Of a DNA stretch of 64,000 bases, positions 3,661 to 28,079 are shown in pieces. The notes under the pieces were generated by a model. That model did not search any database, was not told the DNA's origin, and saw only the letters and a program-made list of their open reading frames with translations. Both the position numbers and the translations under genes were made by a program. Location: assembly GCA_010093995.1 (NCBI GenBank), contig ML992501.1, positions 454,227 through 518,226 on the forward strand, read 5' to 3'. This stretch comes from Elsinoe ampelina. Its lineage: Eukaryota. The stretch's first letter is position 1; each line of letters starts with the position of its first letter.

Positions 3661-3786
3661 AATTTTAGCTTTAGTTTATTAACGCTATATAATAGCTTAG
3701 TTCTATTAGCTCTACTACGAATTATAGTAAATAAGAACTAAACTAAGTAACGAGGTAGAAATAATAGCCTATAGCTAGTATAGAGT

Positions 3787-3978
3787 TAATTACGACTAGT
3801 AAGACAAGAGGTTAATTACGTCTATTTATTAAGATATCGAGACTTAGAAGAAGAAGAAGAAAAGCTAGTATACAAAGCACGCGTAATATCGAGAGCGAAG
3901 CGGCCGGAAGCCTAGGCTACGATGCCGAGATTACGTAATTAATCTAAACTGTATCTAGTTCGTATTTATCTCGTATTA
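3787..3978 (-). repeat. 3' LTR of element A
   Basis: TAATTACGACTAGT...TCGTATTA (RIPed TG...CA), matches 16833-17024 with transition differences. Confidence 0.95.
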
Positions 3979-3999
3979 CTACTCTCTCTCTTAAGTATA

Positions 4000-8130: not shown

Positions 8131-9480
8131 CCGGATAGGTCGGTAGACTTATAATCTATTTCGGGGTCGAACTAAGGCTAAACTAGATCTAGTTCGTAAG
8201 CCGAACTAGTATCGACTTAGTTACTTAATTCGGCTAAGCGTTCCTAGAGCTATTATATCTCTTCTACGGCGCTAATACGTATAGGGCATATAGTAGCGTA
8301 AGTAGCCTTCTCTAAGGCGCTAGCTATATACTTAGTAGAGATATAGCTAGGCTTACTACATGCGTAACAGGTAAGTGCCTAAGTTAGACAGAAGAGCTAT
8401 AGGGCTCCTCTAGTAATAGAGTAGAAGGTAGCTAGAGTAGTAGGTATAGAGGTAGAATAAGGTACGCGAATTAGTGCCGTAGTAGTATAGCTTATAACCG
8501 GCCTAGTATATAGGGCTTAAGTACGCTTAGTAATAAGGTTGCTCTACTAAATGTTATAGTCGGTAGTATAAGCCTTTATAATAAAGATAGAGAGGTCGTT
8601 AGTATCGAAGTTAATAAGAGCAATACGTAGCTTGTTAGATATCTTCTAGCGTAGCTAGTAGAGCTATTTATCCTTAGCAATCTTAGTGTAGAGGGCGTAC
8701 TTGTTAAATTCGCTAATAAAGGAGTCGAAAGAGGCGTTATACTAGAAGAGGCTAGCGAACTAAGCGCGCGTAGTAGCCTTACAGTTTAGATCCTCGAAGC
8801 GCTAGGCTAAGAGGCTAAGAGTAGCTTTAGCGTTAAGAGTGTCGTTACCGGCGGAGTCTATAATAAGAGTATATACTTCGCTAGAGAGATGCGAATAGAG
8901 ATAGGTAAACTAAGTAGCCTCGGTAGAGAAATAGTTAGCGTTAGCGCGTATCTTATTCTTTATCTAGTGCTTAAAAACCTTAAACTGTTCTAGAGTTGCC
9001 GCTAGAGAAGATAGTAGAGTCTAGTATCTTCTCTAACAATATAACGCTACGTGTAGAAGAGGCTAGTATAGCGCGTCCTATCTTAGCTCTTAGCTAGGCT
9101 AGTTCGGTTTTAAGTTTGCTAATATTAGCAAGGTAGCGCGCGGCCTAGGTAGTAAGATTGTTAGCGGTACTATTAGCTATATCTAGTTTAATAAGGACGT
9201 TATCTAACTAGTTATATAGGTTAAGAGTATCGGTATATACTAAGTTATATACGGTAACCTATTTGTTATAGGTAGACTCGACGAAGGCAAAGGCCTTATA
9301 TAGAGTAGTTATACCGTCTATCTCTTATAGCCTCTTCTTAAGGTTAGTGTCGCTAAGGCGAATAAGGTCGTAATAGGCTAATTAGACCGGTTTATTATTA
9401 TTGTTAGCGGAGAGTAGAGGAATCTTACTTACGTAGCGATTGTCTTTGCTATAGTTAGAACGAGCTATACTTAGCGTAGT
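8115..9480 (-). pseudogene. gag of element A
   Basis: Zinc knuckle C-Y-A-C-(G)-K-P-(G)-(H)-I-S-T-K-(C) at ~8369-8328; lies upstream of pol. Start approximate. Confidence 0.8.
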
Positions 9481-9623
9481 TAGTCGTAAATAAATAGTGT
9501 AAAAAGTCAACGCGTAACAAAGGGAATATTAAAAATTTTAGCCGGCAGCCTACTTCCTTTAAGAGTTATCTATAACTCGACTTATTACTCTCTTCTTATA
9601 TCTTTAGGGTTCGTAGTATTAAC

Positions 9624-10087
9624 TGTTATAAACTAGTAGGACAAGCTAGAGCGTAGGAACGTTAGGACTAATTAAACTACTAAGGTTATTACGTAATCTA
9701 GCCTAACGTTTACCTAGTTCTCTATCTTCTCTAGCAGCTCTACCCTAGAGACTATAGAGCGCGTAGGTTACTAGCGGATATGTACTTTGTCTTCTCTAGC
9801 GGCTCTACCACGGAGTATATAGAGTATATAAGGTATATAGTAAAGAATATATATATATAGGAATAGTCCTTACCTTATATAAGTACTATAGTTAACCTCG
9901 TCTAGATAGCGAACACTAGTATTACTAAGGCTAGCCTTTATAATACTATCTAATTATACTTTATTATCTATAAGACATACCTTCTCTAACTCTTACCTTA
10001 GTACTATACTACTATAGAAGTAGAACTACCTCGTTCTTAGCTTAGCTTAGACTACTAACGTAAGCTATATTTAGACAGTTCGTGACA
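9624..10087 (+). repeat. 5' LTR of element B
   Basis: TG...CA termini; near-identical to 16183-16646; internal duplicated TCTTCTCTAGC(A/G)GCTCTACC; TATATAAG at ~9876. Confidence 0.95.
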
Positions 10088-10203
10088 TTTTAACTACCCT
10101 TACTATAGTATAGCACGCTACGAGGTTAATAAGTAACTCTTGCTCTAAGTTACTATTAGCATCTTCGATTACTAGTAAGCTAGGAAAGCTTACTATTAAC
10201 GAC

Positions 10204-12192
10204 ATATCTACTACTAGTTTAACCTCGGGCAAGTATAGAAGGTCTCTTAGTATAAGAGAGAGACGGAGTAGGCCTAAGTTAGAGGTAGAACTCTTCTATA
10301 GGGACCGCGCCTACTTAAGGCGCTTCCTTATTTAACTTAAAGCCTTCTTTGCTCTAGAGAGAGATAAGTACGCTAACGACGTAGCAAAGGTCCTCTATAC
10401 CGGGATACACCTTAAAGGCGCCGCCTTTAGGTAGTTCGAGCCTTATATAAGTAGCTACCTAGATAGATAACTAGGCCTAGATATAAAGGCTATCTTTAAG
10501 AGCTTTAGCATCTTCTAGGCAAAGATTAAGCAAGTCTTTAATGTATCTAATAAGGAACGCGTCGCTATAACAAAGATCTAACAACTATAACAACGTAGGT
10601 CTATAGCCTAGTACTACTCCTAGTTCTAATAACTTGTAATATACCTAGACTAGGATAATAGTGCTAAACATTTAGTATTCTACTAAGGACTAAGCAACTT
10701 AGTTAAGAACTAAATAATACCTAAGCCGCCTAATAGCCTCTAAGAACTAGTAGATACTATAATTACTATTAATAACTAACTTTATAAACGACGTATAGAA
10801 CGTTATAGAGGATATAAGGTAAACACTAGATACACGCGTTCCTCTCGAAACTATAGAGACTCTATAGAACTTAACGCTATACGTAAAGGTTGCCTCTTAT
10901 AAGTATAAGGCTAAAGTTGTAAAGGAAAGTTCCTTAGTAGAAAAGAGAGAGAGAAGTATAGACGAGACAATCTATATTTTAAGTGTAAAAGACCTAGGTA
11001 TCGAGCTAGGGACTACTAATAAGGGGCGCTAGCCGATAGATTATATATAATAGTTGCCGGGCTAGTAGAGAAAAAGGCTAACACTACTATAGAAGACTTA
11101 ATAACCTTTAGCGTAGGTAAGGAAATATAGAAGAAGTCTATAACGACTTAAGAGGTAATAGAATTCTCTCTAGATATTATACTTAATATCTCTACGACTA
11201 ATAGCGAATAATAAAGCTAATACGTAACGCTATTATAGATAGTATATTATAATAACTCTTGTTATATTTACTTGTTAGACAAGTAGGGATCTAGTTAGTT
11301 TCTATATAAGCTATCTAAGTATAGGCAACTAACGAAATAGCTAGACTAGGAACCTAACCTAGAAGAGCTCTCTATAATTAGTAGTAACATTAACTAACCT
11401 TAGAAGGTAGTTAGCGACAATTACTAATATACAATTATTAAGATAAAGTATTAGGACGCGAGTATTATATAACAACATAGTAGTCTTACCTTTAGCTCTT
11501 ATAGTAAACTATAAGGAAAGGTATATTATATGTCGCTCTAGAAATGCACAAATCTAGATTATAAACAGTACTATACTATTTACTTACACGATGTACTTAG
11601 AGAAGAAGCTATTAGTCTTAAATATACTATAGACTTCTTAGTAATTAAAATAGGTAGTACTATTCCCTATAGCTAAGTACGGGAATATACTTAGTATAGC
11701 CTTACTAACTATAACTATGCTAGGGGTAGTAGCGACGAAGAGAAATACAACAAAGAATACACTAAATAACTATAATATAATAACATAGATAAAGACTTAT
11801 CTAACAATAAAGACAATAATATACTACTACTAGGCGGACGACTTAAGGCATACCTTATAGGGATATAGAGAAACTATATAATAATATACACCTACTACTA
11901 GAATAGAATATAATAAGATAAATCTACTTAACTTGCGTTTGTCTTTAACGCTAATACCTAGCTACACCCGGAGGGAATAGTTATACTAGTATAGGTATAT
12001 AACACTACTCGGTGTAACTAGTAGAGAATTATTAGACTTTATAGTTATTAAGGAACGTAAGTACCGGAAGTTTACCTCGCTATATTAAACAACGACAAAA
12101 CACAACTTACCTAATAGATATAGTACTAATAGTAGATACATATAGGAAGGGATTAGCTACTTATCTAAGGAGCTATAATAACAAAAAACTAG
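10204..12192 (+). pseudogene. long gag ORF of element B
   Basis: One frame from RIPed ATG (ATA, 10204) through zinc knuckle (C)FKCxRP(G)(H)RARD(C) at 10975-11016 to AAA AAC TAG at 12184-12192; AAAAAAC slippery site at 12183-12189. Confidence 0.85.
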
Positions 12193-15100
12193 CTAGTTAT
12201 CGCCTAATAAGGTAAGACAATAATACTAGCTAAAGCCTTAATATAATAAAGATCTACACGTTAAATTACTTTATACTAGAAGCCTAGATATAAGAAAATA
12301 AGGTAAGAGCAATAATAGATTTAGGAGCTAACTATAGCTACGTCTCTATAATAGTTACTAAATAGCTTAAACCTTATTAACATTAGAAGGAGTTACCTTA
12401 CCTACTTACTATAGCGAATAGAACCCCTATAGGGAAGAATAGAAAAGTTACTTAGGAACTATAAAATGTTATAATTAAAATCGAGACATATATAGAAAAA
12501 CGATTAATCGATATAGTTAACATGTAGTATAATATAGTACTTAGCATAGACTAGCTTTAATAACATAATCTAGACGTAGACTAGATTAAAGAAACACTTA
12601 AATTCTCTAAGTGTAATTATAGAATGTAGAAAGTATAATTAGCTCCGCGGATACTAACTATAAGAATAGTATAGGTACGACTAATAGTTAGAGCTATCGC
12701 TAGCGTAAGTGATTAAGTACTTCCGCTAGAATATAAAGACTTTAAGGACTTATTTATAGAAAGGGAAGGCATTATAGCCTTACTCTAATATAAACTATAG
12801 AATTACAAAATACCTTTTAAAGAAGGTAAATCCCCGATACACTATTAAGGTCTAATACTACTATCGAAACAAGAAGAGAATATTCTTAAGAACTACATCG
12901 ACAAGTACTTACTTAAAGGATTTATACGACTATTAAAATTACCTATTACACACGGAGTGCTTTTCGTACCTAAGAAGGATAGAACGTTATAAATATATAT
13001 TAATTACTAGAAACTTAATATACTTACCCGGAAGAATTGCTATCCTCTACCTAGGATCGACAAACTCTAAGACTAACTACTTAGAGCTAAATAGTTCACC
13101 GTAATTAACATTAGGGACGCCTATTATCGAGTATAAATAAAGGAGAGCAAGGAGTAAAAAACAGCTTTTAAGATATAATAGAGTCTATATAAATACCTCG
13201 TTATGCCCTTTAGGTTAACTAACGCTCCTATAACCTTCTAAGAGTTAATTAATAACACTCTATAAGAATACCTTAATAACTTTATCTTAGTATATTTAGA
13301 CAATATTATTATTTTCTTAAAGACGTATAACAAACATATAGAACATATTTATAAAGTACTATAGAAACTAAAAGAGAAAGACCTACTAGTAAAACTCTCT
13401 AAGTGTAAGTTCTATAAGTATAAGATATAATTTCTAAGCTATGTTATATCTACTAATAGTATTAGACCCGATCCGAAGAAGATTAAGTTAGTAAACAACT
13501 AGCCGGAACCTACGATAGTTAAGGAGGTTTAAGCGCTACTAGGGTTCTTTAACTACTACTATAAGTTTGTTAAAGAATTCTTTAAGGTAGCTATACTAAT
13601 ATCTAACCTTACGAAAAAGGAAACTAGCTTTGTCTTTAATAAGAGATATAGGTAGGCCTTTAAGGAGCTAAAGCTTAGACTTATAATAGTACCTATCCTA
13701 GCACTCTTCGACCTAGACTAATAAGTACTACTAGAAATAGATGCCTCGGACTTTGCGATAGAAGCGTATCTAGCGTAGAAAGACGTATAGGGACGACGCT
13801 ACCTAATTATATACTACTTACGAAAAATGACTAGGCCTAAACTTAACTACGACATATACGACAAAGAATTACTTACGATTATAGAAGTATTCTACGAATA
13901 GCGTGTATACCTAGAAGGAATAACCTTACCTATGTAAGTCTATACCGACTATAAGAACCTATTATATTAGACAATAACTAAGGTTCTTAATAGACAACAG
14001 GTTCGATAGTTAGAAACACTTATAAGCTATAACTTTTAGATCTACTATGTTAAGGGATTAGAGAACGGCGGAGTAGACGCTCTTAGCTAATAACTAGACT
14101 ACTTAAAGAATATAACAATAATAGAGGCCTCTATACTAAAGTAGTAAGACAGCGCTTTAGTCTATAAGCACCCGAAGGTAAAGCAATTATATAGCCTTAC
14201 CTAGGAGCTTATATAAGAACAGAAAAAAGAAGTTATTTAAATATACTATAATAACCTAACTACGGGACATAGTAGGATCGATAAGACTATTAAACTTATT
14301 ACATAAAACTACCTATAGAAAGGACTCCGAAACAATATTAAGATATATATCGCTATATACGATATATGCTATAAGTCTAAGCACTTACAATATAAGCTAT
14401 ATAGCCTACTATAACTCTTACTACCACTAGATAAGCTATAGTAATTAGTTATAATAGACTTTATAGGACCTCTACTGCTATTAGAAGAACCTCTTATAGG
14501 TGTAAAGTACAATAGTATTCTAGTTCTAGTAGATAGGTTTATAAAGTATTACTACTTTGTACTATATAAGACAATAGTAACTACCGAGGATATAGCCTTT
14601 GTCTTTCTCCGAATAATCGTTTTATAACATAGAGTACTACGAGACTTAATAACTAACAGAGATAAGCTATTTACGTTATAATTCTAGCAATTATTTATAG
14701 ACCTACTAGGAGTTAAATATAAGCTATTAACCTTCTTTTATCTATAAACGGATAGACAAACCAAATAGGTAAATTAAGTACTAGAGTAGTACCTGCGATA
14801 CTACCTAAACTATAAGTAAGACTTATAGGCAACGCTATTACTACTCGCGGAGCTCGCTATTAATAATAGAAAGTCCGTAAATAGAGTTTTACTATTCTAC
14901 GTAAACTATAGGATACACTCGGATCTATACTATAACACACTTAGAATTAAGCTAGTATCTAAGGATACTAATATACTAGTTACTAACATTAAGAAACTAC
15001 ACGACTAGCTATACTATAATATAGTATTTATATTATAAAGAATAGTAGAATTTGCTAACTAGAAGAGAATTGTAGGACTAATTCTAAAGGAGAGAGAGAA

Positions 15101-15563
15101 AGTTTACCTCCTTAGTAAAAACATTAAAACGAAACAACTAAGTAAGAAACTTAACTACACTAAACTAGGACTCTTTAGGATCCTAGAAAAGAAAAACAAG
15201 AACGTATATAAACTAGAACTACTAAGACATATAAGGATCTATCTAGTCTTTTATATATTACTACTAGAGAAAGCACTATAGAACGCTATACCTAGACCTA
15301 TTAAACTAGATAAAGAAACATAAGAGCTATAGTATAAGATAGAAAGAGTTTTATGTTATAAACTTATAAAAGAAAAACGCTACTATCTTATCCACTAGAA
15401 AGGACATTAGTATAGTAAGGCAATATAGGAACTAGAGGAATACCTTACCTCGTAAGTAATTCTAAATTACTAAACCGAAAACCTATTCTAAGTAAATCGA
15501 CTAGGTAGACCTAACGCTACTAACACTAAACAAAAACAAGAACGCTTAAGGAAGACTACTTAG
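12189..15563 (+). pseudogene. pol of element B (-1 frame; protease, RT, RNase H, integrase, chromodomain)
   Basis: VMPF(G)LTNAP ~13200, VYLD(N/D)III at 13290, E(T)DASDFA ~13734, NYDI(H)DKELL ~13845, integrase core ~14450-14800, chromodomain YYLIH(W)KG...T(W)E(P)EE ~15381-15440; frame is -1 relative to gag. Confidence 0.92.
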
Positions 15564-15577
15564 CCGATAGAAGCACC

Positions 15578-16108
15578 CTAATTGTCGCCGAATAAGGAAC
15601 CCTAGTCGAAGTTAGGCATAAATAATTACTAGTCCTATAGTAGGATAGGATCTACCGATAATAGCATTTCCTTCTACTCTAAGACTTAAATATAGGTCTT
15701 CTCTAGAGAGATTACTTTCTTCGCCTTGTTCTTTAACTTTTATATCTCTTTACATAGGTAAAGCTTATTGCCTATAGCTCTTTAATAAGCCTCTTTTACC
15801 TTTTTATAAGCTTCTTTAGCTTCCTTTCTAGTAGCCTTAGCTATAACTAATTCCTTTTACAAATAAATACACTTAGAATAGAGATGCTACTATTCCGATT
15901 TTGTTACCTAAATATTATAACTAGAGTAGTTACTTACGACATACTAGCTATAGATACCCGACCGAATATAGACCTTATAGTCTAGCCCCTTCGATTTGTA
16001 ACAAGAATAAGCCTATAGCATATTAGTTCTAAATAGTTTAATAAACTTTAAGAGATTCTTTCGTACAAATATGCTAGATTTACTATGCCTTTAACGACTA
16101 GGAGGCAT
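15578..16108 (-). pseudogene. antisense extra ORF of element B: Cys-rich (Zn-cluster-like) domain plus coiled coil
   Basis: Intact ATG at 16108 in frame with TAG at 15580-15578 (176 codons); internal stops are RIP-type; de-RIPed MPQACSxCKSKGLDCKVHIRSGICGQCVVSNHSGCNIQVTKSEW followed by an E/K/A-rich helix. Confidence 0.7.
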
Positions 16109-16182
16109 GTTTAGTATATAGCGCATAAAGATAGAGAAGAATACTTACTTGTTAGAACAACTTAATTAAAGAAGGAAAGTAA

Positions 16183-16646
16183 TATTATAAACTAGTAGGA
16201 CAAGCTAGAGCGTAGGGACGTTAGGACTAATTAAACTACTAAGGTTATTACGCGACCTAGCCCGACGTTTACTTAGTTCTCTATCTTCTCTAGCGGCTCT
16301 ACTCTAGAGACTATAGAGCATATAGGTTACTAGCGAACGTATACTCTGTCTTCTCTAGCGGCTCTACTACGAAGCATATAGAGTATATAGGGTACGTAGT
16401 AAAGAACATATGTATATAGGAATAGTCCTTACCTTATATAAGTACTATAGTTAACCTTGTCTAGATAGCGAACGCTAGTATTGCTAAGGCTAGCCTTTAT
16501 AATACTATCTAATTGTACTTTATTATCTATAAGATATATCTTCTCTAACTCTTACCTTAGTGCTATACTACTATAGAAGTAGAACTACCTTATTCTTAGC
16601 TTAGCTTAGACTACTAACGTAGGCTATATTTAGACAGTTCGTAACA
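16183..16646 (+). repeat. 3' LTR of element B
   Basis: Matches 9624-10087; followed by TSD TTAAC. Confidence 0.95.
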
Positions 16647-16832
16647 TTAACCTACATAGCGGTAGCAAGGATCTATTATAGTATACGCGGGAACTACGGT
16701 CGTAATAGCTTCTTCTTTAATTCTTTAATTCTTTATAAGTGGTAGTTATTAGTAGTTACGTAAGTAGTAGAATAACTAGATAATTTAATAGCTCTGTCGC
16801 TTAGTTATAGTTGTTTCGAAGTCTCGATATAG

Positions 16833-17024
16833 TAATTACAACTAGTAAGACAAGAGGTTAATTACGTCTATTTATTAAAATATCGAGACTTAGAAGAAGA
16901 AGAAGAAAAGCTAGTATACAAAGCACGCGTAATATCGAGAGCGAAGTAGCCGGAAGCCTAAGCTATAATACTAAGATTATGTAATTAATCTAAACTATAT
17001 CTAGTTTATATCTATCTCGCATTA
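16833..17024 (-). repeat. 5' LTR of element A
   Basis: Matches 3787-3978; followed by TSD AGAGT. Confidence 0.95.
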
Positions 17025-17424
17025 AGAGTGTCCTTTCTCCTTTACCTACTATATAGTATAGTATAGTAGATAATTCTCTTAGTCTCTTTACTAACTTTAA
17101 CTTTTAACCTCTAGCACGTAGAACAGATAGTAATAGTAATAGTAGGCTTAATAGTAACATATATAAGAAAGAGAAGGGTATAGACGAGGTTATAATAGGA
17201 AGTATATATAAGAAAGAGTAAGTAATTATAGTAAGTATAACTAGTAGTATATCTATAGAGCGGAGTACTAGAAGGTTATTCTTATTTAGTAGAGCTATAT
17301 CTAATTATACTATGTTCGAGATAGTAACTAGTATACTAGCTAGTAGCGAGGAGTTAGTAATAGACATAGTTTATTCTTAGTTTATATTAACTAATCTTAT
17401 CTAGATCTCCCTAAGTCTATAATA
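17025..17424 (+). repeat. Dispersed repeat (continues 3670-3786 across element A) matching ~24365-24875
   Basis: AGAGTGTCCTT...CTAAGTCTATAATA aligns base-for-base with 24476-24875; similarity continues left of element A at ~3670-3786. Confidence 0.9.
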
Positions 17425-17800
17425 TATTCTTTACCCCGAGCAATTAATAAGATATAGCTTAGCTAGGGACTCTTAGCTTAGCGCTCTAATGTTTAATAAA
17501 AGGCAAGCTACTAACTTAGATAGATAATTTTAATTCGAGTTAGGTCGTTATAGTAGAAGTACCTTCTAGTAGAATACACTTACTATAGACTACTAGCCTC
17601 TATATAATGTTCTAACAAATCTACTTCTACCTACGTAAGAGTACTAAAGATATATCTAAGTTACATACGCGAAGGCTATAGTAGTCTAACTAATAGCAAA
17701 ATAGTGTTTACTAGTAGAAAGCTTACTTAGCTTAAATTTAGTAGTGTAAATTATTACTTTACTCTATCTCTAGTATATTATATATAGTAATAGTAGAGAG

Positions 17801-18100: not shown

Positions 18101-20099
18101 GATTAAGTACTCCTCGGAACTTAATTATATAATACTATCTAATTATATTCTTCTCTAAAGTTAAGTATTATATATTTAGAGACTTATAATCTTTATAGTA
18201 TTATAAATATGTTATAAACCCTATTTGTAGCAATATAACTATATTATAGATACGATTTACTATAACACTTTAGTTTGTGCCCTTTACTTACACCGACCTA
18301 AATATAGGCGTTAGTATCTCTATTATAACCTTTTCTCTCCTCTCTATCTAACCTTAATAATAGCTAGCTATCTATTATAGTAGATCCCCTACCTAGTATA
18401 CTATAATTATCTATTGCTATATATACGATAGTAACTCTAATATTTACTCCTACCTTGCTATTGCTACTACTTCTAATAGTATTCTCTATACTAGCTATAT
18501 CGTGTTTATAGAATTAACTACTACTAGTACCTAGTAGTTACGCCGGAGTAAATCTATTATAGTATACCTCTCTATCTTACCTACTACGCCGCTATAGGCT
18601 TAAGGGTATATAAGGAGACTCTAATATCTCTTTCCCTCTCCCTACTACTACTGCCCTTTATAGCTTCCTTTATACTAGCTACGTATTATTAGTAGAATTA
18701 GCTACTATCTCTACCTAGTAGCTACGACTAAGTAAATCTATCGCGGAGTATCTCCCGATCTTATAGATAGTACTACTAGGGGTTCTAGCGTACGTAAAGA
18801 GAGTAGAGAAGCTAGTATCTACTAGGGATTATCTACCTTATAGTATAAAGATATTAAGGGGAGAATTATAGAGGAATAACTAGTATAACAAAGAGAAAGA
18901 GATAGAGGAATATCGTAGGTAAAGATATATCTACTACCTTCTACTAGATAGTAGCTTACTATAGAGAGCGTTATAGGCGAAGCTATACTAGTAGTATTCT
19001 CTCTCGCTATTACCTTCCTAGTAGAGCTAGGCGAGGAATAAAGCGTATTTATAATTATGTAGAATATACTATTAACTGCCTATTCTATAGAATATATAGT
19101 CTTTACTCTACCTTACTACTTAATTCTACATATAGTAATTATAAAGTCTAGATAATTAGATAGTAGTATATTACTTTCTTTGTTTCTTTACTAGTATCTA
19201 TAAGCTATACTATATACTATATATACTATGCCCTTTATTCCGCTATAGGCTACTAACTACCTTCTATTTATGTTCTATTACTATTGTCCTTTACATATAA
19301 ATACTAGTTTTACTATTAAAATATTGTTTAATTATTTTACGTTAACTACTACTATATTCTCTCTATTTATTAGACTATTATCCCTTAAGATCTACCCTAA
19401 ACACGACAATAGTATCCTTAGTATATATAGCATATAAAATAAAAGGTAACTAAGTATATAGACTATAGTTACTCTTAGTTTAGTATCTAAACTAAGTAAT
19501 TTACTATTATATATATGCTATATCTAGTATACTACTACGTACTTAGTTCGGGGCCTGACCTAAGTTAACTAAATTTAAGTTACTTCTCTCCTTAATTACT
19601 TTAGTTTACTTTTATTTATACTCTCTTATATATAAATAAATAACTTATATAGCTCTCTAGTATTTCTTTAACCTCTTTAATCTCTCTTTTAAGCGCTCTT
19701 TACTTAAATATCTCCTCTTTAGTTAAGTCTTAGTTAGGTATATATTATAAAGTATATAGACCTACTATGTTAATAAATTCTCTCCTTAATTCTTTTAAAC
19801 TTATAAATATATAATACCTTTACGGAATCTCTTCTTTAATATCTACTATATCTACTTAATCTATTTACTAAATATTATTCTAAGCTTTATTTATAGTATA
19901 TACTAAGCTTATAGACGTATATAATATATCTAAGAATTAGCCTAATAGCGCTAGTATAGCTACTAATAATATTCCGCTCTATAAAAGACCTCCTATAGAA
20001 ATTTAAGTATAGCTTAATAAAAACCTTAAGATTAAGAGATTCTTCCTTAAATTCTTTAACTAGAACAACAACTAGTACACCACTACACATATAAGAGCG

Positions 20100-23000
20100 T
20101 AGGAAGAATATAAGAATACCTATATAGTTCTAGGACTTAAATATAAAGAACCTTAGGATAGTAACGTTAATATAACTATAATTATAAATAACATTAAAAC
20201 TTCCCTATAATACTCTTAGGATAACTATACGAAGATCTTCTTTTAAAGACTATACTATTAAGACTAAGACTAGTTTAAGAGAAATATTAGAAACTATAAT
20301 AATATATCTAGTTATAATATTATTAAAGATTTTGTCCTTACTATTAAGGTATAAGAGCTTAGGAATAAGAAGAATTAGACTAAAGTAAATAAGAAGGCTT
20401 ATCTTAAGAAGTATATTAGAAAGCGCCCCTCTACTACCTAGTCTAATAGTAGACTCTCCGAAAGATTAGAGACTTCTATACTTAGTAGCGGACTTATAGG
20501 TATAGATATTAATTACTATACTAGTTAGCCTATATATTAGTAGTAAATGCTAAAGGACATGTCTTATCTAGTCTAGAGCATTATTAACAAAACTATATTA
20601 ACTTTATAATTGTTAAGTAATTAGATATTAGCCTAGGCATAATTATAAAGAGAGGATGTTTATATTATCTATAGGTATTTAGTCTAAGAATTTTAAAGTT
20701 ACATCCGGGGGATTATAATTTAAACGTATATAGCCTTAATAATATTAGGCTATTCCTAAAGGAGAAGAAGTTAGTTAGTAATAATATTATCCTTATATAG
20801 ATAGATTATATAGAGCTATATAACATCCTACCTATCTTAGATAACTACGACCTATATACTACTATAATTAACTATATTAACTCCCTAGTTAAAGGTAGTA
20901 ATATAATCTTTATCTATCTTATGCCTAGTATAGATCTAGTTAAGAAGCTCCCTAAAGAAGTACTTTATAAGTTTAATACTTAGTTCGACTTAGGTATATA
21001 CTAATATACTTAGTTAACTCTCTTTAGTATTGTAATAGTTAAAAGCTATTAACTCTAGTCTAGGAGAAAGAGGAAGAGGAACTTCTAGCCCCTCTATCTC
21101 TAGCTAAGCGCCTACTACTACGTAAACTTACCTCTAAGAAGTAACTTAGCTCTCTACTACCTAACAAGAATAATACTACTATTAACTATCGTCCTACTCA
21201 GGTAATAGAAGACAAATACTATAAGTAATACTAAGATAGCAATTAGTATCTCTTTATAATTATGCCTAGTAAGGAGCGAGTAAGGTACTATATTCTATTA
21301 GTCTCTAAGATACTATCTATACCTATTCTAGCGCTTATAACTTATATATTTAATAAGACTCTTAGTAGCTCGGACTTTGTTAAACTTTATACTATAAACA
21401 ATAACAATAACAAGTAAACTAGTAATAATCTAGCTAACTAAAGCTTTATCCCTATAGGCACTAGAATTAATTACTAGTCTAAAGAGTTCTAGGAGAGAGT
21501 CTATAACTTTATAAGCTTTAAGAAAGATATCTACTTACCGAACGCTAGTATATAGTATTTTAGTTAGAACAAGAAGTATCTAGTTAAGGTAGTATAGATA
21601 TACTTAGCACTTATTATACTTAAGAAATACCTCGAAGGCTACCTAGTATTTATATTTATATATAAGATAGAATTTAGAAAGACTCTAATAGAACTCTTCT
21701 TTCTCTTACTAATTTAGAACTTAAATAAAAAGGTTATCTAGGATACTAACTATACTACTATACCTAAGGATAAGTAGAGTAAGTACCGAAAGGCAAAGAT
21801 ACTAGTTAACGAGCTATAGCTAGATATCGCTTCTATAGATACTATTAGCTATAATCTAATTGTTAGCGGATTAAATATAATAAAATAGTAAGCGTAGGAG
21901 ATATAGAAGTTTATACCTAATATAAAGGTTATTCTATGCTAGGGAAGAATATTCTAAGCTATATAAGAAGACAAGTATAGTAACATATATAACATAGATA
22001 CTTTAATTTATAAAGAGGATCTACCTATAGGCTACTACTAATAGGAGTCTTAGCTAATAGATAAGTCTAGTAAGCCTATTAATACTATTATAGTCTTATA
22101 ACTAGTTAATATATATAAGTAACACTCTTAGACCTTATAGATAAATAATTAGTTCTTCTTTACTACTTATAACACTATAATCTACTACTTCCTTAGTAAG
22201 AACAATATAAATACTAAGGATTAGAACTTTGTTTCTAAGAGATAAAAGAGAAAGCTAGGGTCTACGCCTATAAACTAGGCCGCTGTTATCTTTAATAAGT
22301 TCTATTAGGTTACTAGCTAGAAGACGTAGACCTAGTATTATCTAGGAATACTACTAGAGAGGCTTTTTATACTAGGTATAAGTAGGACACTATTTGTTAA
22401 GTGCTTAAACGTAGTAGTGTTCTTAATAGCGGCTATATATAAGAACTTTAGATTAGAAAAGCTTAATATAAATAGAAGTAAAATAGGAGAATTAAATAAG
22501 AATTATATCTATAAATCTAAGTAGAAGCTAACTAAAACTAAGAATAATAAATGTTAAGTAACACTAAAGACAACACTAGATAAGACTTAATAAGCTATTA
22601 CTAATAAGCTTAACTTCTAAATAGTATTAGACTATACCTTCGTAATTGACAAATAGTATAAGGCAAATAATAACCCTAGTAAGTTTAATAAAAAGGAAAG
22701 TATATAGTTTATAGAAGAGATTATAGTAATAGTTAGTAAATAAGGTACTATCCTTATAAACATTCTTATTAAGATAAATATAGACTATATCTAGAAACCT
22801 TTTAATATTACTTCTAGTCTACTAGCTATTAGAGTTCTACTATATTCTACCTTCGACCTAGAAATTGCTATCGAGAATAAGTATCTTTATAGTCTTATAA
22901 ATATATAGAAGAAGATTAAATAGAATATAGATAAGAGTATATAAGAGGCAATTAACAGGTAAAAGGACAAATCTAATAAGCCTAAAGTAACATTAGAGGT

Positions 23001-23905
23001 AATCCTTAATAAGAAGACTAAGGAGTAAATACTAAGCTTAGTTATACTACTACTACTTTTCTCTATATTTCTTGCTCTTATAGATATATTCTAGAATAAT
23101 CCTATAGTTATAGAAGAGTTTAGCAACTTTACTATTAAGTTTACTTATAAAATTATATATAACTTCTTAGAGATAGTACTATAGTAGTATATAGATAAGA
23201 TCTATACTAGTCCTTAGATAAAGGTCCTTTATAGTGTTATTTCTAAGATTATTAAGTAGAACGTCTCCTATTTAAAGGAGCTAAAGAGGTAAGTAATTGT
23301 CTATATATTTACACTATTAGTGCTAGTAGTCGCTATAATAGTTAGTTCGGTCTATTTAGTCTATTTAGGTTATTACTAACAAGGGTATAGTATCTAAAAT
23401 AGCTCGAGAAGCACCTAGATAGTAAAGTAATTAGGATTAATAAGAATACTAATGTAGTTATTATCTACTATAGAATAATATCTATACCTGCCTATATAGA
23501 CATCGTTAATATAGCTATATCTAATAATACATTTATTAAACCTAATAGGCTAGAAGGCTTAAGAATCTTAATTGCCTAGGGTAGAGCTATTAAGACTAGT
23601 CTTAATCTAAACCGCTTCGATACTATAATCTTACTCGATATAGTATTAGTATTACGATCCGTCCTTTAGTATCTAGCTTAGGTCTATAGAAATATTAAGT
23701 CTTAGAAAGCTAACTATATAGAGGCGTTTATAATAAAGCTAATAGCTCTATTCTATAGGCCTCTAGAATAGCTTAATAGTAGATAGAGTAGGCTATTAAT
23801 AATATAGAAGATTATCTACGAGGAAATAGAGAAGTAGAGGGCAGAGATCTAGAAACTTTAATGAGCTATAGCGAAGAAGAACATAATTGTTATAGATAAT
23901 AATTA
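20100..23905 (+). pseudogene. RIP-destroyed SNF2-family helicase/ATPase
   Basis: De-RIPed motifs in order: Walker A (H)(E)(M)(G)F(G)KT at 21661, Walker B AAVIF(D)(E)F(H) at 22279-22305, motif III G(M)S(G)T(P)F at 22375-22395 (same frame); after a probable intron (~23384-23457), motif V T(G)LNL at 23595 and motif VI (Q)YLA(R)V(H)R at ~23667-23690. 5' end approximate. Confidence 0.8.
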
Positions 23906-24721
23906 AGATTACTAAATAATAGTTTAACTATATTACTTAAAAATATAATTCTTTAGTTTAGTAGACTAATTTAGTTCCCTATATATATTAAACTATCTTT
24001 TAGGTTACCTAATATAATATAGTATCTAAACGTTTCTTACTTTCTACTATTGCTAAAATTTAGCTAGCTAACTCTAACTACAAATTTAGATCTTAAGTAA
24101 TAAACACAAATATACTAAGGCGAATTAGTAAATGCTCGGCCTATAGGAAGATTATATAATCTAGTAGAGGCCTTGTCTAATATCTACTATATTACTAGAG
24201 AAAAGAGCTACTAATAAGTAACATAGTATAAGTCTTACTAGAGTAACATAGCAATAGACATCTACGTAGAGATAACGCTAGTAATAATCCTTACTTATTT
24301 AATAAGGGAGAGTACTTACTATCTAATAAAGGCTAATAAGGTAGTATTACTAGTAATACACGATATAGTTCGCTAATGCTAAATAACCTACTAGTCTACT
24401 TTACTCCGCTACGAATAACAGTAACTAAGAATTAAACTAAACACTAGAGTAGAAACGAAAGTCTATAGCTAGCGGAGAGTGTCCTTCTCCCTTTGCCTAC
24501 TATATAGTATAGCATAGCGGATAATTCTCTTAGTCTCTTTACTAACCTTAACTCTCGACCTCTAGTACGTAGAATAGATAGTAATAGTAATAGTATACTC
24601 GATAGTAACGTATATAAGAAAGAGAAGAGCATAGACAAGGTTATAATAGGAGATATATACGAGGAAGAGTAAGTAATTATAGTAAGTATAACTAGTAGTA
24701 TATCTATAGGGCGGAGTACTA

Positions 24722-27649
24722 GGAGGTTATTCTTATCTAGTAGAGCTATATACGATTATACTACGTTCGAGATAGCTACTAGTATACCGGCTAGTAGCGA
24801 AGAGTTAGTTATAGATATAGTTTATCCTTAGTTTATGTCGACTAATCTTATCTAGATCTCTCTAAGTCTACGATATATATACTAACACTAACGATAAACT
24901 AAATTATAATTAGTTAAGCGAGACTTAACTAAAGTAAGCCTTTATTAGCGGTATAGACATAGGTCTTACCTAATAGCTTATAAAGGAGAAACTTAGTAGA
25001 GCTATAATTACGTAATTACTTAAAGACCTACGTATATAACCTTTAGTAGAGAGCCTTAGTTAGTAAACTACGAATAAACTAATAAAGAAGATAGAGAATT
25101 TAGATACGGGCGAGAGTATTAATAGCTAGTAGACCTCGAGCTTTATACTAAACACTAATTATAGGCCTAAAAGACACATGTTCTAGTATCTAGATATTCT
25201 TATAGTAATATACTTCTTGCTTAGCTATTATAGTTTCGTAGTAGACATAGACTATAGCCTATATAGAGTCTTTATAGAAGCTATCGAGAGTAAGCTACTA
25301 CAATAAGTATATACTAAAATAGTAAGCGGTAACTAGTAGTAGAATATACAAAAGCGACTTAGGATACTAGGGGCTACTATTATCCTATTAATTGTCGTAA
25401 GTAATTAGACCTAGGTAATAAACTATTAAGGAGATCTTATAGCACATACTATCTATCTATTATTAGGCAACCTAAAGGTAGAAGCATATAATAGTAACTA
25501 CTAGCCGGGGTAGTTACTAATTAGCTTACTTTCTATTATTAAAGATAGTAGTAATATTGTTAAGGAGAAGACCTACTATACTTATATAAAGAAAATCTTT
25601 AATGCTATTATTAATTGCTACTTAAGAGAGGGCGAAATAATCTCCTATATAGATAGAAAGAGGTAGAGGTGCTTCTCTATACTTACTACTATACCTATAG
25701 ATTACGCCGAATAGGTTACTATAACTAGTATAAAGTTACTATATTATTATATAAGTTGCCTAATTGGTAAGGACAAAAGAGAGAACCTAGTAGTTACTAT
25801 ACTATTCTAAACTTACTACTCTACGTAGTAATAATAGCGCTTATAGAGAGAAGTACATAAGAGTTAGTAGTAGGGCAAGAAGATAGATATAAGCTCTTAA
25901 GTTTATATAGTTAGTTACTTTACGTAGGATCTTCTATATACTAATATTTACTATGTAATAGTGCTAGATATTCTATACTAACTTCTTAAAGGCGTTTTAA
26001 TATATATCTTACACTAGACTTAAAAATTGCTCTAGGATTTAATACCTATATAGAGATTACTACGGTATATAAAGGCTAGAGAGACTATATAGCAAATAGG
26101 CTACTAGCGCTCGGCAAAGAAGATTATACTTAATATTATTAATAAGTGTTTTAATAGTATACTAGTGTTTCCTAGCATTTAACACTTCTTATACTACTTA
26201 GCTATTAAGCAATAGACAGGTTAAGAGTAGAAGAGTATTGTACACTAGATACTTCTAGTATTTATACTACTACTTAAGGAAGTTAAGGCGCCTTAAGCTA
26301 TTAAGTTTATACGCGTACTAGTCGACTTTATATTACTAGTAAACTATAAGACCTACAACGACGATATACTCTAGTATATTAACCTTGCGCTCTTTAGAAT
26401 AAATAAGTATAAAGAAATCTTCTAGGCCTATTATAGTAATAGGAAAGAAAAGAGCAACTTTAACTTTCTAAAATAGCACTTAATAACATATTTTTTAAAG
26501 GCTATTTATAATTTTAGAGTAGTTACTAGCCTTAATTCTAATCATTTAGAGTATAATTATATATACTTTATTAAGGACGCCTTTAAACTTATAAATAAGA
26601 AGGCTAGATAGAAAGACTAAGTTACTACTTATAACACTAAACTAGTAAATATGTTAGTAGTATTCGATAACCCCTCGAAGTTAGTTAGGCTATTAGCTAC
26701 TAAACTAATTAAGATCTAGAGTACGCTAGTTAGCGTAAGTAATATAGTAAATATTACTTCTTAGTTCGGCTAGCCTAGCGCTAAGAGAGGAGCTATATAG
26801 CATATAGTAAAAGAACTAGAGGCGCTTATTAATATACTACCTAGGCTATTACTATAGTAAGTAATAGCAGTATTTATCTACGAGGCTTATTAAGGTATAG
26901 CCGATATAGGCTCTAACTCGAGAACTAAATACTTTAATTAGTTTAATGCTAAACTAGATCCCGATAGACTCGAACTAGATTCTTTCTAGGTAAGTAACCT
27001 CTACGTTAAGTTCTACTATTCTTTAAAGTGTAGAAAACTATCTAACTATAATTCTAATAATCCTAATATAGACAAATAAGACTTTATCTAGTATATAACT
27101 AAATAGCAAAGAATATATAGCAATAAGAGGCAAGACTAGCTCTAGGTATAAGAATAGACAATAAATAACAAAGGCACTAATAGAGTATTACCTAATAGCC
27201 TATAAGGTAAGTTACTAGCTTATATTATATTTATAATAACTATAGAGAATAGCTTCTAGTCTAGTAGATTAGGCCGGCGTTAACGCCTATACTACATAGA
27301 AGCGCTAGTAGATCTATATTAGCTTACTCGGCCGGATAGAGTAGCTAATCGAGAGTATAGTATAACACTAATTAAGCCTTAGACAAATCGACACGCGTAA
27401 GCTAGATAGAACACTCTTACTAGTAGGTATATCTACTTTACCTCGTAAATCTACTATAGTATCTACGTTATACTAGTAGATAAAATAAGACTATATAGCT
27501 AGATATATATTAATAACATAGCTAACTTTAACATATATAATATACTATAGAATAAGTTATAGGAGTCTAAATAGCTCTACCTAGCTAAGGCTTTAAAATA
27601 AGAGAGGTTAAGATCCCTAGGTATAGTTAGTAAGCGTAGTAGGCATTAA
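24722..27649 (+). pseudogene. RIP-destroyed Plavaka-family transposase (CACTA/EnSpm-related)
   Basis: One frame with de-RIPed YTEMASGDWWWNIQ (TAG TAG TAG at 25334-25342), GATIIPLIVASDQTQV..GD..A..IYL.LGN, VPDILHQLLKGV ~25961, ID..F..MP.FPGI.HF, QWTG.EQK, FNFPKWH ~26459, SEH.HI.FIKDAF..TNKK. An acidic N-terminal part probably extends to ~24370. Confidence 0.88.
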
Positions 27650-28079
27650 TAAAGCTAGAGTACTTCTTTTGTAGCTAGAACAATTATCTCTTACATTAAT
27701 AGCCTAACACTTAGGTATACTTAGGTTAACTACTAGACTATATTAAGTAAGTAAGTTATAATAACTTCCGTAGGTATTACTCTAACTAGTTAGTTTATAC
27801 CTATATATTATTAGGTTAGTCCCTAAACTATATAGGGTTTATAGCCTAAGGTGCCTTATATAGTTTTTACACTAAAGAGTTAGTCTATTTCTTTACTAAT
27901 TATAATAGCTTAGAAAATTATAGTAAGGCGTTATAGAAGTTAGTCTTTAAGATACTTAAGATATACTCTAAGTATTTAGTAATAGTAGTAAAAGGCTTAG
28001 GTTAGTAAGTTATCTTTAGGTTAGTTTCACTAACAGAGTTAGCGGTCTAAGAGGAAAGTTTATTCTCTATAATAAGTTT

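What the first reader, a model, noticed from the sequence alone, without database searches (positions are those of the whole stretch)
20100..27649. SNF2 chromatin-remodeller-type ATPase directly upstream of, and co-oriented with, a Plavaka transposase
Helicase motifs I, II, III, V and VI are recoverable in order, with divergent forms (HEMGFGKT, DEFH), and the gene ends under 1 kb from the transposase. Plavaka/KDZ elements are known to carry chromatin-related passengers (TET/JBP in basidiomycetes) and Academ/Kolobok elements carry RecQ-like helicases; I do not know of a described SNF2-Plavaka pairing. Inference: an element-encoded remodeller aiding transposition or escape from silencing.
Basis: partly seen in the sequence, partly recalled or inferred. 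Interest (0 to 1): 0.72.

Follow-up and report, generated by a model that had tools for sequence, protein, structure and literature searches.

The report
Dead Plavaka transposon with SNF2-like passenger
A mutation-riddled fungal jumping gene of the Plavaka type seems to carry, inside the same pair of end repeats, a second gene that faintly resembles a chromatin-remodelling motor, a passenger type I did not find described for these elements.

Summary
The Plavaka transposase relic is real: Pfam PF18759, E 7e-21, 25070-25999, + strand.

The SNF2 claim is only partly recoverable.
- No literal motif exists in any frame.
- Pfam, PDB and a 1.84-billion-protein phmmer search found nothing.
- A RIP-aware profile alignment of my own recovers motif I plus the SNF2-typical Ia-Ib block at 21652-21945. 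It scores 25.8 bits, the top of 61 kb, and 0 of 36 shuffles reach it.
- Motifs II, III and IV-VI are not above chance. "DEFH" cannot be obtained by reversing RIP.

On structure, the SNF2-like stretch is a repeat with an older second copy at 1-3786. Two nested Gypsy elements separate the two copies.

- A public-run contig joins 27218 to 18949 across 14 other bases.
- Those two positions carry an inverted repeat (TAGTAGCTTAC / TAGTAACTTAC; 2 of 3000 random pairs score as well).

Together they define a candidate 8.27-kb element that holds both genes. No target-site duplication was resolved. This copy is dead, and any function is inference.

The closest precedents are Plavaka elements with accessory genes and the X3X3R8 Rad5/SNF2-like repeat of Parastagonospora nodorum.

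Verdict: observation partly confirmed, interpretation partly supported, new variant of a known kind.

The parts
18949..27218 (+). Candidate complete element E2 (8,270 bp) holding the SNF2-like relic, segment C2 and the Plavaka transposase relic
   Evidence: A contig joint 27218 -> 14 nt -> 18949 appears in runs X1 and X2 (table 5c). There is an inverted repeat at both ends.
18949..18959 (+). 5' terminal inverted repeat core TAGTAGCTTAC
   Evidence: 10 of 11 bases equal the reverse complement of 27207-27217, and the one difference is a transition. The anchored 60-nt alignment scores 19.5. 2 of 3000 random pairs reach that.
27207..27217 (+). 3' terminal inverted repeat core (reverse complement TAGTAACTTAC)
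19860..24470 (+). Long RIP-broken coding stretch S copy 2. The frame changes several times: f1, f2, f1, f1, f0, f2, f1.
   Evidence: one frame has 2-7 stops per 90 codons where the other frames have 10-24. The known Plavaka frame behaves the same way, which serves as a control.
21652..21684 (+). SNF2 motif I (Walker A) relic. It reads IFIYKIEFRKT, which reverses to ..HEMGFGKT.
   Evidence: Block score 14.2, nominally the best of 61 kb (next 14.1).
21841..21945 (+). SNF2 motif Ia-Ib block relic. It reads TISYNLIVSGLNIIK**A*EI*KFIPNIKVILC*G.
   Evidence: 25.0 bits against 15.6 for the next best, and 0 of 298 null windows reach it; a second profile gives 17.3 at +21963 against 13.7.
22507..22808 (+). 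Weak match to the SNF2 linker block (profile positions 221-313)
   Evidence: 17.8 bits. 2.2% of null windows reach it.
23490..23871 (+). Helicase C-lobe look-alike (..SLNLNRFDTIILLD..). It is colinear but not above chance.
   Evidence: 15.4 bits. 36% of null windows reach it.
24475..24878 (+). Segment C2, a 404-bp young repeat that starts TGTCC. It is open in window frame 1 and leads into the Plavaka frame.
   Evidence: 99% RY identity to 17024-17427; 4 stops in 133 codons against 16 or more in the other frames.
25070..25999 (+). Plavaka transposase domain relic
   Evidence: PF18759, E 7e-21, 75.2 bits.
1..3786 (+). S copy 1, an older and diverged copy of 20555-24478. The window start cuts it off.
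   Evidence: RY-coded global score 1023 against about 515 in three controls. RY identity is 77%.
17024..17427 (+). Segment C1. It was contiguous with the end of S copy 1 before the Gypsy G1 insertion.
3787..17024 (-). Gypsy element G1 with 192-bp LTRs (3787-3978 and 16833-17024), target-site duplication AGAGT and pol on the - strand. A second Gypsy, G2, is nested in it at 9624-16645 (+, 466-bp LTRs, duplication TTAAC).

Best explanation
Window 18949-27218 is one RIP-killed copy of a high-copy DNA transposon of the Plavaka lineage (EnSpm/CACTA-like). It is bounded by short terminal inverted repeats. Upstream of its transposase gene, and in the same orientation, it carries a long second gene. 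The only recoverable homology of that gene is to the first half of the ATPase N-lobe of SNF2-family motors (motifs I, Ia, Ib).

SHOWN: the Plavaka domain, the RIP signature, the SNF2-like block at 21652-21945, the inverted repeat at both ends, and a junction of exactly these ends at another locus of the same organism.

INFERRED: the transposase cut at these ends and moved both genes together. The SNF2-like protein served the element as an accessory factor, for example by opening or resetting chromatin at the element or by helping repair of the excision or insertion site. This is by analogy with TET/JBP and other chromatin-related passengers of Plavaka elements. This copy itself is non-functional.
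For: 1. Plavaka domain: PF18759, E 7e-21.
2. RIP signature: RIP indices. Other genomic copies differ from this one almost only by transitions. In run X1 the counts are A>G 387, T>C 375, C>T 177, G>A 179, and 20 transversions in all. All 20 rows shown inside 19000-24478 are transitions.
3. SNF2 block, first profile: 25.8 bits at 21652-21945 against 19.4 for the next best in 61 kb. 0 of 36 shuffles reach it, Gumbel P about 0.004. Ia-Ib alone scores 25.0 against 15.6, and 0 of 298 null windows reach it.
4. SNF2 block, second profile: a bacterial SNF2 profile about 45% identical to the first again puts Ia-Ib on top, 17.3 at +21963 against 13.7.
5. Junction at another locus: a contig in both runs reads 27218 -> 14 nt -> 18949, at depth 99.5 and 215, near the single-copy depth of 122-131.
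6. Inverted repeat at exactly these places: 2 of 3000 random pairs reach its score.
7. Coding signal: the stop-poor frames run on the + strand from about 19860 through C2 into the Plavaka frame, with no clear non-coding gap.
8. Recurrent adjacency: both S copies abut the same 404-bp segment.
9. Weak hint only: summed contig depth is flat at 10-13 thousand in X1 from 19102 to 27373. It is higher just upstream (14-16 thousand over 18068-19101) and lower just downstream (about 7 thousand), although the bins at 17034-18067 read about 9-10 thousand, close to the inside. The tool warns that depth from contigs cannot rank parts.
Against: - Standard searches see no SNF2.
- Motifs II, III, IV and V-VI are at noise. 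The fraction of null windows reaching the observed score is 0.36-0.98.
- With the second profile, the whole I-Ib segment is only second: 19.5 against 20.5 at +26902.
- A RapA-only profile gives nothing.
- S copy 1 shows no SNF2 block.
- No target-site duplication fits ends at 18949/27218. CTA/TTA fits only if the ends are moved to 18947/27219 (my reading).
- The 11-mer core also occurs elsewhere, for example at 25300 on the - strand and in weaker form in three 100-bp tandem repeats at 17819, 17919 and 18019.
- The junction comes from one sample only.
- S copies 1 and 2 are old relatives while C1 and C2 are young. This needs an extra recombination or conversion event.
- In the same RIP block, Pfam still finds the Gypsy and Plavaka domains at 50-78 bits. 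The SNF2-like gene is therefore either very atypical or more decayed than they are.
Confidence: 0.5

Rival explanations
1. Two unrelated repeats lie side by side in a transposon graveyard. One is an older S-family repeat whose 3' boundary is at 24478. The other is a younger Plavaka element that begins with segment C (TGTCC...). On this reading the inverted repeat and the junction at 18949/27218 are coincidental, or they are ends of different elements.
For: - S copies 1 and 2 stop being alike exactly where C begins.
- S1/S2 RY identity is 77%, while C1/C2 is 99%.
- C starts TGT, like the PlavakaA termini TGT..ACA (PMC12730594, passages seen).
- The region demonstrably holds nested insertions.
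- Pfam detects Plavaka but not SNF2.
Against: - No inverted copy of the start of C was found downstream. The best match is 27 of 30 RY at 26432, inside the gene.
- Both C copies share the same left flank for about 22 bp. That speaks for copying by recombination rather than two independent insertions.
- The junction and the inverted repeat at 18949/27218 stand against it.
- The S copy 2 region has many young relatives in the genome that differ only by transitions, like the Plavaka part.
Confidence: 0.27
2. The upstream stretch is not an SNF2 relic. The I/Ia/Ib match is a chance product of lenient RIP-aware scoring, and the stretch is some other accessory gene or decayed non-coding DNA.
For: - All standard searches are negative.
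- Only one of four profile segments is clearly above noise.
- One of 36 shuffles reached 24.5.
- The second profile is weaker and the RapA profile gives nothing.
Against:
- Motif I lies 111 nt upstream in the same frame.
- A second profile gives the same top place.
- Colinear weak matches to the linker and C-lobe follow downstream on the same strand.
Confidence: 0.15
3. C1 and C2 are the long terminal repeats of an LTR-type element (17024-24878), and its internal part holds the SNF2-like stretch. The Plavaka relic is simply its downstream neighbour.
For: - There is a 404-bp direct repeat pair 7,451 bp apart with 99% RY identity.
- It starts TG.
- A purine run GCGGAGAG sits before the 3' copy.
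Against: - No gag, RT, RNase H or integrase was found in 19001-24878. 17428-19000 was not scanned. Both real Gypsy elements nearby are found easily.
- tblastx against those Gypsy elements found nothing. The best E is 0.036.
- The flanks do not form a target-site duplication and there is no TGG-type primer site (my reading).
- C is open in one frame.
- The end of S copy 1 also abuts C1, which an insertion would not produce.
Confidence: 0.06
4. The stretch is part of a segmentally amplified host gene cluster, as was proposed for the X3X3R8 repeat of Parastagonospora nodorum. It is not a transposon passenger.
For: - There are two tandem, diverged SNF2-like copies. After the Gypsy nest is removed they lie 7.45 kb apart.
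- This recalls the 'two tandem X3 repeats', the second 10-20% divergent, carrying Rad5/SNF2-like helicase genes (PMC3017866, passages seen).
Against: - No UBC/Rad6 domain or other host-type domain was found in 19-31 kb on either strand.
- A transposase lies inside the same candidate unit.
- The ends are inverted repeats.
- phmmer found no intact relative among 1.84 billion proteins.
Confidence: 0.08

Closest known systems
Plavaka DNA transposons (EnSpm/CACTA-related 'CMCT' clade), with TET/JBP passengers in Agaricomycetes (Kojima 2025, PMC12730594, passages seen. The original description by Iyer et al. 2014 is recalled, not seen.)
   Same: It has a Plavaka transposase domain. A second, chromatin-related gene lies in the same unit. 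The short termini are compatible, after RIP reversal, with the clade's 5'-CA..TG-3' rule. The paper describes Plavaka elements as carrying one accessory gene beside the transposase.
   Different: The passenger here looks SNF2-like, not like a TET/JBP dioxygenase. The host is a RIP-active ascomycete. The termini are neither TGT..ACA nor CATCA..TGATG as read. No 2-3 bp target-site duplication was shown. The word SNF2 does not occur in that paper.
Giant Plavaka elements of the red alga Bostrychia with accessory genes PAG1-3 (bioRxiv 10.1101/2025.02.11.637652, passages seen)
   Same: It is the Plavaka lineage with accessory genes predicted to act on DNA or chromatin. The copy number is very high.
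   Different: Those elements are 17-19 kb. They carry a DNA methylase/SET protein and a ParB-like 2OG-oxygenase protein. SNF2 is mentioned there only for host gene families.
X3X3R8 repeat family of Parastagonospora (Stagonospora) nodorum (Hane and Oliver 2010, PMC3017866, passages and a supplement search seen)
   Same: It is a RIP-degraded, multi-copy repeat of a filamentous ascomycete that holds tandem, diverged Rad5/SNF2-like helicase genes next to uncharacterised ORFs.
   Different: That family is 26 kb, includes a Rad6-type ubiquitin-conjugating enzyme, and was read as an endogenous gene cluster. No transposase is reported in what I saw (passages, one supplement search). I found no UBC domain here and could not compare sequences. 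The term X3X3R8 occurs in no other paper of the library.
SNF2-family ATPases (Pfam SNF2_N PF00176 with Helicase_C PF00271)
   Same: Motif I (GxGKT after RIP reversal) is followed about 50 codons later by the LIVxP...W..E..KF.P..KV....G block. That block is typical of the SNF2 N-lobe.
   Different: Motifs II (DExH), III and IV-VI are not recoverable above chance. There is no Pfam match. The subfamily is unknown.

Membership tests
Plavaka transposase (PF18759) | Match to the family profile above the curated cut-off | tested here: met
   75.2 bits against a cut-off of 26.3, E 7e-21, model positions 4-317 of 325, window 25070-25999.
Plavaka transposase (PF18759) | [quoted passage not shown] | not tested
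   No intact relatives could be fetched for an alignment (0 hits). RIP also obscures Cys and His codons.
Plavaka / CMCT-clade element | Terminal inverted repeats, 5'-CA..TG-3' in most cases (PlavakaA TGT..ACA, PlavakaB CATCA..TGATG) | tested here: inconclusive
   There is an inverted repeat TAGTAGCTTAC / TAGTAACTTAC at 18949 and 27217. TA..TA could be a RIPed CA..TG. It is neither of the two published Plavaka terminus types as read.
Plavaka / CMCT-clade element | Target-site duplication of 2-5 bp | tested here: inconclusive
   The flanks AGA and CTT do not match. CTA/TTA fits only with the ends shifted to 18947/27219.
SNF2 family ATPase | Pfam SNF2_N and Helicase_C above their cut-offs | tested here: not met
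   no such match at E<=10 in 36 pieces. Searches were also negative. RIP damage may be the cause.
SNF2 family ATPase | Motif I (Walker A) followed by the Ia-Ib block of the N-lobe | tested here: met
   RIP-aware alignment: 25.8 bits, the top of 61 kb, and 0 of 36 shuffles reach it. Ia-Ib scores 25.0 against 15.6. A second profile gives 17.3 against 13.7.
SNF2 family ATPase | Motif II DExH and motif III (TGTP..N) | tested here: inconclusive
   best scores 9.2-9.8. 53-98% of null windows reach them. The candidates seen by eye (LIDKSS, FVIDK*Y, LGSTPIN, LALIDIF*NN) disagree with one another.
SNF2 family ATPase | C-lobe motifs IV, V and VI (..GG.GLNL.., QA.DR.HRIGQ) | tested here: inconclusive
   There is a colinear alignment at 23490-23871 of 15.4 bits, but 36% of null windows reach it. 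The codon at the motif VI arginine is TAG, which is not a RIP product of an Arg codon.
LTR retrotransposon (for the C1..C2 pair) | Paired LTRs, target-site duplication, gag/pol | tested here: not met
   The repeat pair is present. There is no target-site duplication and no gag/pol domain in 19001-24878. 17428-19000 was not scanned.
X3X3R8-type repeat (P. nodorum) | Tandem diverged SNF2-like repeats plus a reversed unit with a Rad6-type UBC gene | tested here: inconclusive
   Tandem diverged copies are present. No UBC domain was found in 19-31 kb on either strand. Sequence comparison with X3 is not possible with these tools.

The most novel reading that the evidence does not exclude
High-copy 'helicase' repeat families of RIP-active ascomycetes, such as X3X3R8 of Parastagonospora nodorum and the family seen here at roughly a hundred copies, are not amplified host gene clusters. 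They are autonomous Plavaka/EnSpm-type transposons that carry their own SNF2-family motor, a transposon-borne chromatin or repair toolkit parallel to the TET/JBP passengers of basidiomycete Plavaka elements.
Probability: 0.2. Interest if true: 0.75.

Novelty: new variant of a known kind. Interest (0 to 1): 0.55.

Why it matters
Cut-and-paste transposons that carry chromatin-acting passengers are rare. Known cases are TET/JBP in fungal Plavaka and KDZ elements, and methylase/SET and ParB-oxygenase genes in red algal Plavaka. They bear on how mobile elements resist host silencing. An ATP-dependent remodeller-type passenger would add a new class of such cargo.

It would occur in a fungus whose main defence, RIP, acts on duplicated DNA. 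It would also offer a transposon explanation for 'helicase' repeat families that were read as amplified host genes.

The case is directly testable from the whole assembly, because the family appears to be present in many copies that differ almost only by RIP transitions. If the SNF2 reading or the shared ends fail, what remains is an ordinary RIP-killed Plavaka relic in a nest of retrotransposons.

Tried and rejected
SEARCHES THAT FOUND NOTHING
- Literal motif search in six frames: nothing.
- Pfam on long frames and on 36 pieces: Plavaka only.
- PDB phmmer on two pieces: 0 matches.
- phmmer of the frame-1 read-through 20941-24540 against 1.84 billion representatives: 0 matches.
- Word-indexed search with the Plavaka stretch against longer proteins: 0 matches. 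This is weak evidence, since RIP destroys the exact words the index needs.
- Earlier scan notes: nothing on this genome, on look-alike sequence, or on Plavaka.

TOOLS NOT AVAILABLE
- The whole genome is not held.
- The ESM Atlas look-up did not accept a read-through of stop codons. That route stays untried.

COPY 1 AGAINST COPY 2
- Codon periodicity of transversions between the two copies, as a test for coding constraint: none in 23 windows, all p>0.12. The divergence looks neutral.
- Using copy 1 to clean up the SNF2 block: the two copies align too poorly around 21.6-22.1 kb, and copy 1 has no block of its own.

PROFILE CONTROLS
- RapA-only profile: no signal.
- The first run with the second profile used wrong segment coordinates, because one sequence had an early GxGKT. 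It was repeated correctly.

STRUCTURE
- A search for an inverted copy of the start of C downstream gave only 27 of 30 RY at 26432, inside the gene.
- A general RY-coded inverted-repeat search gave 1002 noise-level hits.
- Homology of the stretch after C1 with the stretch after C2, or with 27.2-30.5 kb: none.
- tblastx of S against the two Gypsy elements: nothing.
- The LTR-element reading of C1/C2 was considered and ranked low.

READ DEPTH
- Depth from the laid contigs is no copy number by the tool's own warning. I use it only as a hint.

Full report
SETTING

The first 30.5 kb of the window are AT-rich (GC 25-41% per kb). The rest has 50-61% GC.

The AT-rich block has the dinucleotide signature of repeat-induced point mutation (RIP). 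TpA/ApT is 1.8-2.2 and (CpA+TpG)/(ApC+GpT) is 0.17-0.27 in all seven parts measured. The GC-rich flank gives 0.58 and 1.24.

Between 20100 and 27649 there is no open frame of 80 codons or more on the + strand. Whatever is there is a pseudogene. No whole genome is held for this window.

With stops read as X, one + frame matches Pfam PF18759 (Plavaka transposase). The match has E 7e-21 and 75.2 bits against a cut-off of 26.3, and covers model positions 4-317 of 325. That corresponds to 25070-25999. Nothing else was found in the three + frames of 19001-29001, in the three - frames, or in the six frames of 27501-31000.

THE SNF2 HALF IS NOT VISIBLE TO ORDINARY TOOLS

- The quoted strings and generic helicase patterns occur in none of the six frames between 15 and 30 kb.
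- 36 overlapping 300-residue pieces of the three + frames (19.5-25.3 kb, stops read as Q/Q/W) gave no SNF2_N or Helicase_C match at E<=10. They gave only scattered unrelated hits at E 0.02-8.
- Two pieces gave 0 matches against PDB sequences at E<=10.
- A 1200-residue read-through (20941-24540, the frame with the fewest stops) gave 0 matches at E<=0.001 against 1.84 billion proteins.

By contrast, the two Gypsy elements in the same RIP block are found at once, with RVT_1, RT_RNaseH, Integrase_H2C2, SH3_Tf2-1 and gag at 25-78 bits.

A RIP-AWARE TEST

Method. I built an SNF2 core profile of 477 positions from 30 bacterial SNF2 genes. They were picked by their SNF2_N score in a sample of 401 genomes. 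I aligned it to the DNA with a codon model in which each ancestral C may read T and each G may read A, with some further decay. Frame changes and insertions were allowed.

What is supported:
- The segment holding motifs I, Ia and Ib aligns at 21652-21945 on the + strand, in one frame, with 25.8 bits. The next best place in both strands of the 30.5-kb block scores 19.4.
- The alignment reads IFIYKIEFRKTLIELFFLLLI*NLNK, then 111 nt, then TISYNLIVSGLNIIK**A*EI*KFIPNIKVILC*G. The consensus reads [26 protein letters not shown] ... [35 protein letters not shown].
- 0 of 36 shuffles of the block reach 25.8. Their mean is 19.4 and their maximum 24.5. A Gumbel fit gives about 0.004.
- The SNF2-typical Ia-Ib block alone scores 25.0 against 15.6 for the next best. 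0 of 298 null windows reach it.
- Harsher RIP settings keep the site on top, 21.7 against 19.0.
- A second profile, from 19 genes of another bacterial SNF2 group about 45% identical to the first, again puts Ia-Ib on top at the same place, 17.3 against 13.7.

What is weaker or negative:
- With the second profile, the whole I-Ib segment is only second, 19.5 against 20.5 at +26902.
- A narrow RapA profile sees nothing.

What is not supported. Within the windows where they should lie, these fractions of null windows reach the observed score:
- motif II: 0.53
- motif III: 0.88
- motifs II and III together: 0.98
- motif IV: 0.48
- motifs V-VI: 0.53
- the whole C-lobe: 0.36

Only the linker block stands out a little, with 17.8 bits at 22507-22808 and a fraction of 0.022.

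The C-lobe look-alike that catches the eye (..GRAIKTSLNLNRFDTIILLD..*YLA*VYR, 23490-23871) is colinear but scores 15.4 bits, which is ordinary. TAG can come from CAG or TGG, not from a Phe codon. The codon at the motif VI arginine is also TAG.

So 'motifs I, II, III, V and VI recoverable in order' is too strong. Motif I with Ia-Ib is what the data carry. I put the odds that this is a true SNF2-family relic at about 0.7-0.75.

ANATOMY OF THE NEIGHBOURHOOD

Repeats were compared after coding bases as purine or pyrimidine (RY), which RIP cannot change.

1. A second copy of the SNF2-like stretch.
   - Window 1-3786 is colinear with 20555-24478. The global RY score is 1023, against 510-519 in three controls. 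RY identity is 77% and nucleotide identity 53%.
   - Homology is clear at both ends and weak in the middle.
   - The SNF2-like stretch is therefore a repeat, 'S', with an old second copy that the window start cuts off.

2. Two nested Gypsy elements.
   - 3787-17024 is a Gypsy element (G1). It has 192-bp LTRs that are 100% RY-identical, a perfect 5-bp target-site duplication AGAGT, and pol on the - strand.
   - Nested in it is a second Gypsy (G2, 9624-16645) with 466-bp LTRs and the duplication TTAAC.

3. A young 404-bp repeat after both S copies.
   - The segment 'C' occurs at 17024-17427 and at 24475-24878 with 99% RY identity.
   - With G1 removed, the end of S copy 1 runs straight into C1, exactly as S copy 2 runs into C2.
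   - The last roughly 22 bp before C differ only by transitions.
   - C has 4 stops in 133 codons in one frame, against 16 or more in the other frames. Stop-poor frames run on from S through C into the Plavaka frame.
   - The sequence after C1 is unrelated to the sequence after C2.

The contrast between old S copies and young C copies is unexplained by any simple history. A recombination or gap-repair chimera is my best guess.

EVIDENCE FOR ONE ELEMENT

Two public runs of one sample hold about half of the sampled words of this stretch. When their contigs were laid at 80% likeness, they cover all 30 bins of 16000-31500.

- Differences from the window are almost all transitions. In X1 they are A>G 387, T>C 375, C>T 177, G>A 179, with 20 transversions in all.
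- All 20 rows shown inside 19000-24478 are transitions.
- Summed depth is 7-16 thousand across 17-30 kb, against 122-131 in the unique flank. The tool warns that this is no copy number, so I say only that the family is highly repeated and that other copies often keep G or C where this one has A or T.
- One contig in each run joins 27218 to 18949 with the 14 letters ATATAATATAAACC between them. Its depth is near single-copy. These letters match neither flank in the window.

At exactly these places the window reads TAGTAGCTTAC (18949) and, in reverse complement, TAGTAACTTAC (27217). The anchored 60-nt alignment of the two ends scores 19.5. The null is 0.6 +/- 5.7, and 2 of 3000 random pairs of places in the same block reach 19.5.

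This defines a candidate element of 8,270 bp that contains both the SNF2-like relic and the Plavaka domain. After RIP reversal, the ends TA..TA could be the CA..TG common in this transposon clade (PMC12730594, passages seen).

Against this reading:
- No target-site duplication fits these ends. CTA/TTA fits if they are shifted by two and one bases.
- The 11-mer recurs at 25300 on the - strand, and in weaker form in three 100-bp tandem repeats at 17819, 17919 and 18019.
- All read evidence comes from one sample.

HOW IT MOST LIKELY WORKED

Shown: a Plavaka-type DDE transposase gene and an upstream co-oriented gene with an SNF2-like ATPase start lie between inverted repeats. The family is multi-copy. 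This copy has been destroyed by RIP.

Inferred: the transposase moved the whole unit. The second protein served the element, for example by remodelling chromatin at the element or by assisting repair at excision or insertion sites. Nothing here tests that function. The gene could equally be a captured and never-functional fragment.

COMPARISON WITH WHAT IS KNOWN

- Plavaka elements with one accessory gene (TET/JBP) are described in Agaricomycetes. Two terminus types with 2-3 bp target-site duplications are reported (PMC12730594, passages).
- Giant Plavaka elements of a red alga carry three accessory genes with methylase/SET and ParB-like oxygenase domains (bioRxiv 10.1101/2025.02.11.637652, passages).
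- A Zisupton-type KDZ transposase has a SWIM domain, which is not an SNF2 ATPase (PMC11343200, one passage).
- The nearest precedent for SNF2-like genes in RIPed ascomycete repeats is X3X3R8 of Parastagonospora nodorum. It consists of two tandem X3 units, the second 10-20% divergent, with Rad5/SNF2-like helicase genes, then a reversed unit with a Rad6-type enzyme and unknown ORFs. It was read as an endogenous gene cluster (PMC3017866, passages and a supplement search).
- I found no paper that reports an SNF2-family passenger in a Plavaka or KDZ element. The searches were made, with listings and the passages named above. The library lacks most subscription journals, and preprint supplements are closed.

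VERDICT

- The thing is best filed as a new variant of a known kind: a Plavaka element with an accessory gene.
- The decisive work is simple once the assembly is in hand: gather the copies, reverse RIP on a consensus, and check ends, target-site duplications and domains.

Noticed in passing
3787-17024 (nested element at 9624-16645): Two Gypsy retrotransposons lie one inside the other, and both have intact hallmarks despite RIP. The outer one has 192-bp LTRs, target-site duplication AGAGT and pol on the - strand. The inner one has 466-bp LTRs, TG..CA ends and target-site duplication TTAAC. Contigs of the LTR region reach about a thousand times the single-copy depth in the laid runs.
   Followed up: yes
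17800-18100: There are three tandem 100-bp units (85-88% identical, about 99% in RY code). Each holds a weak copy (9 of 11) of the candidate element's terminal 11-mer. They lie about 0.9-1.1 kb upstream of the candidate 5' end. They could be subterminal repeats of a neighbouring or larger element.
   Followed up: partly
1-3786 with 17024-17427: An old, diverged copy of the SNF2-like repeat is fused at the homologous point to a young 404-bp segment identical in RY code to the one before the Plavaka gene. This old-next-to-young junction suggests recombination or gap repair between subfamilies. It is not explained.
   Followed up: partly
18941-18954: The candidate 5' end sits in a small palindrome, CTACTA-GA-TAGTAG. 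It could be the last bases of an upstream element's 3' end lying two bases from the next element's 5' end. That would resemble the head-to-tail junction seen in the public contig.
   Followed up: no
29959-30992 and 16985/30439: The last 0.5-1 kb of the AT-rich block is a very high-copy repeat, with summed depth 27-79 thousand. One contig joins 16985 to 30439 on opposite strands, which suggests an inverted copy of the outer Gypsy LTR at the isochore border.
   Followed up: no
30500-31000: The switch from RIPed, gene-free DNA (GC about 30%) to GC-rich DNA (55-60%) is abrupt. The GC-rich side has long open frames, the first at 30970-32637 (555 codons). The genes of the GC-rich half were not examined.
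   Followed up: no
28178-28282 and 29757-29861: This is a short direct repeat (82% identity, 90% in RY code) downstream of the candidate element. Its origin is unknown.
   Followed up: no
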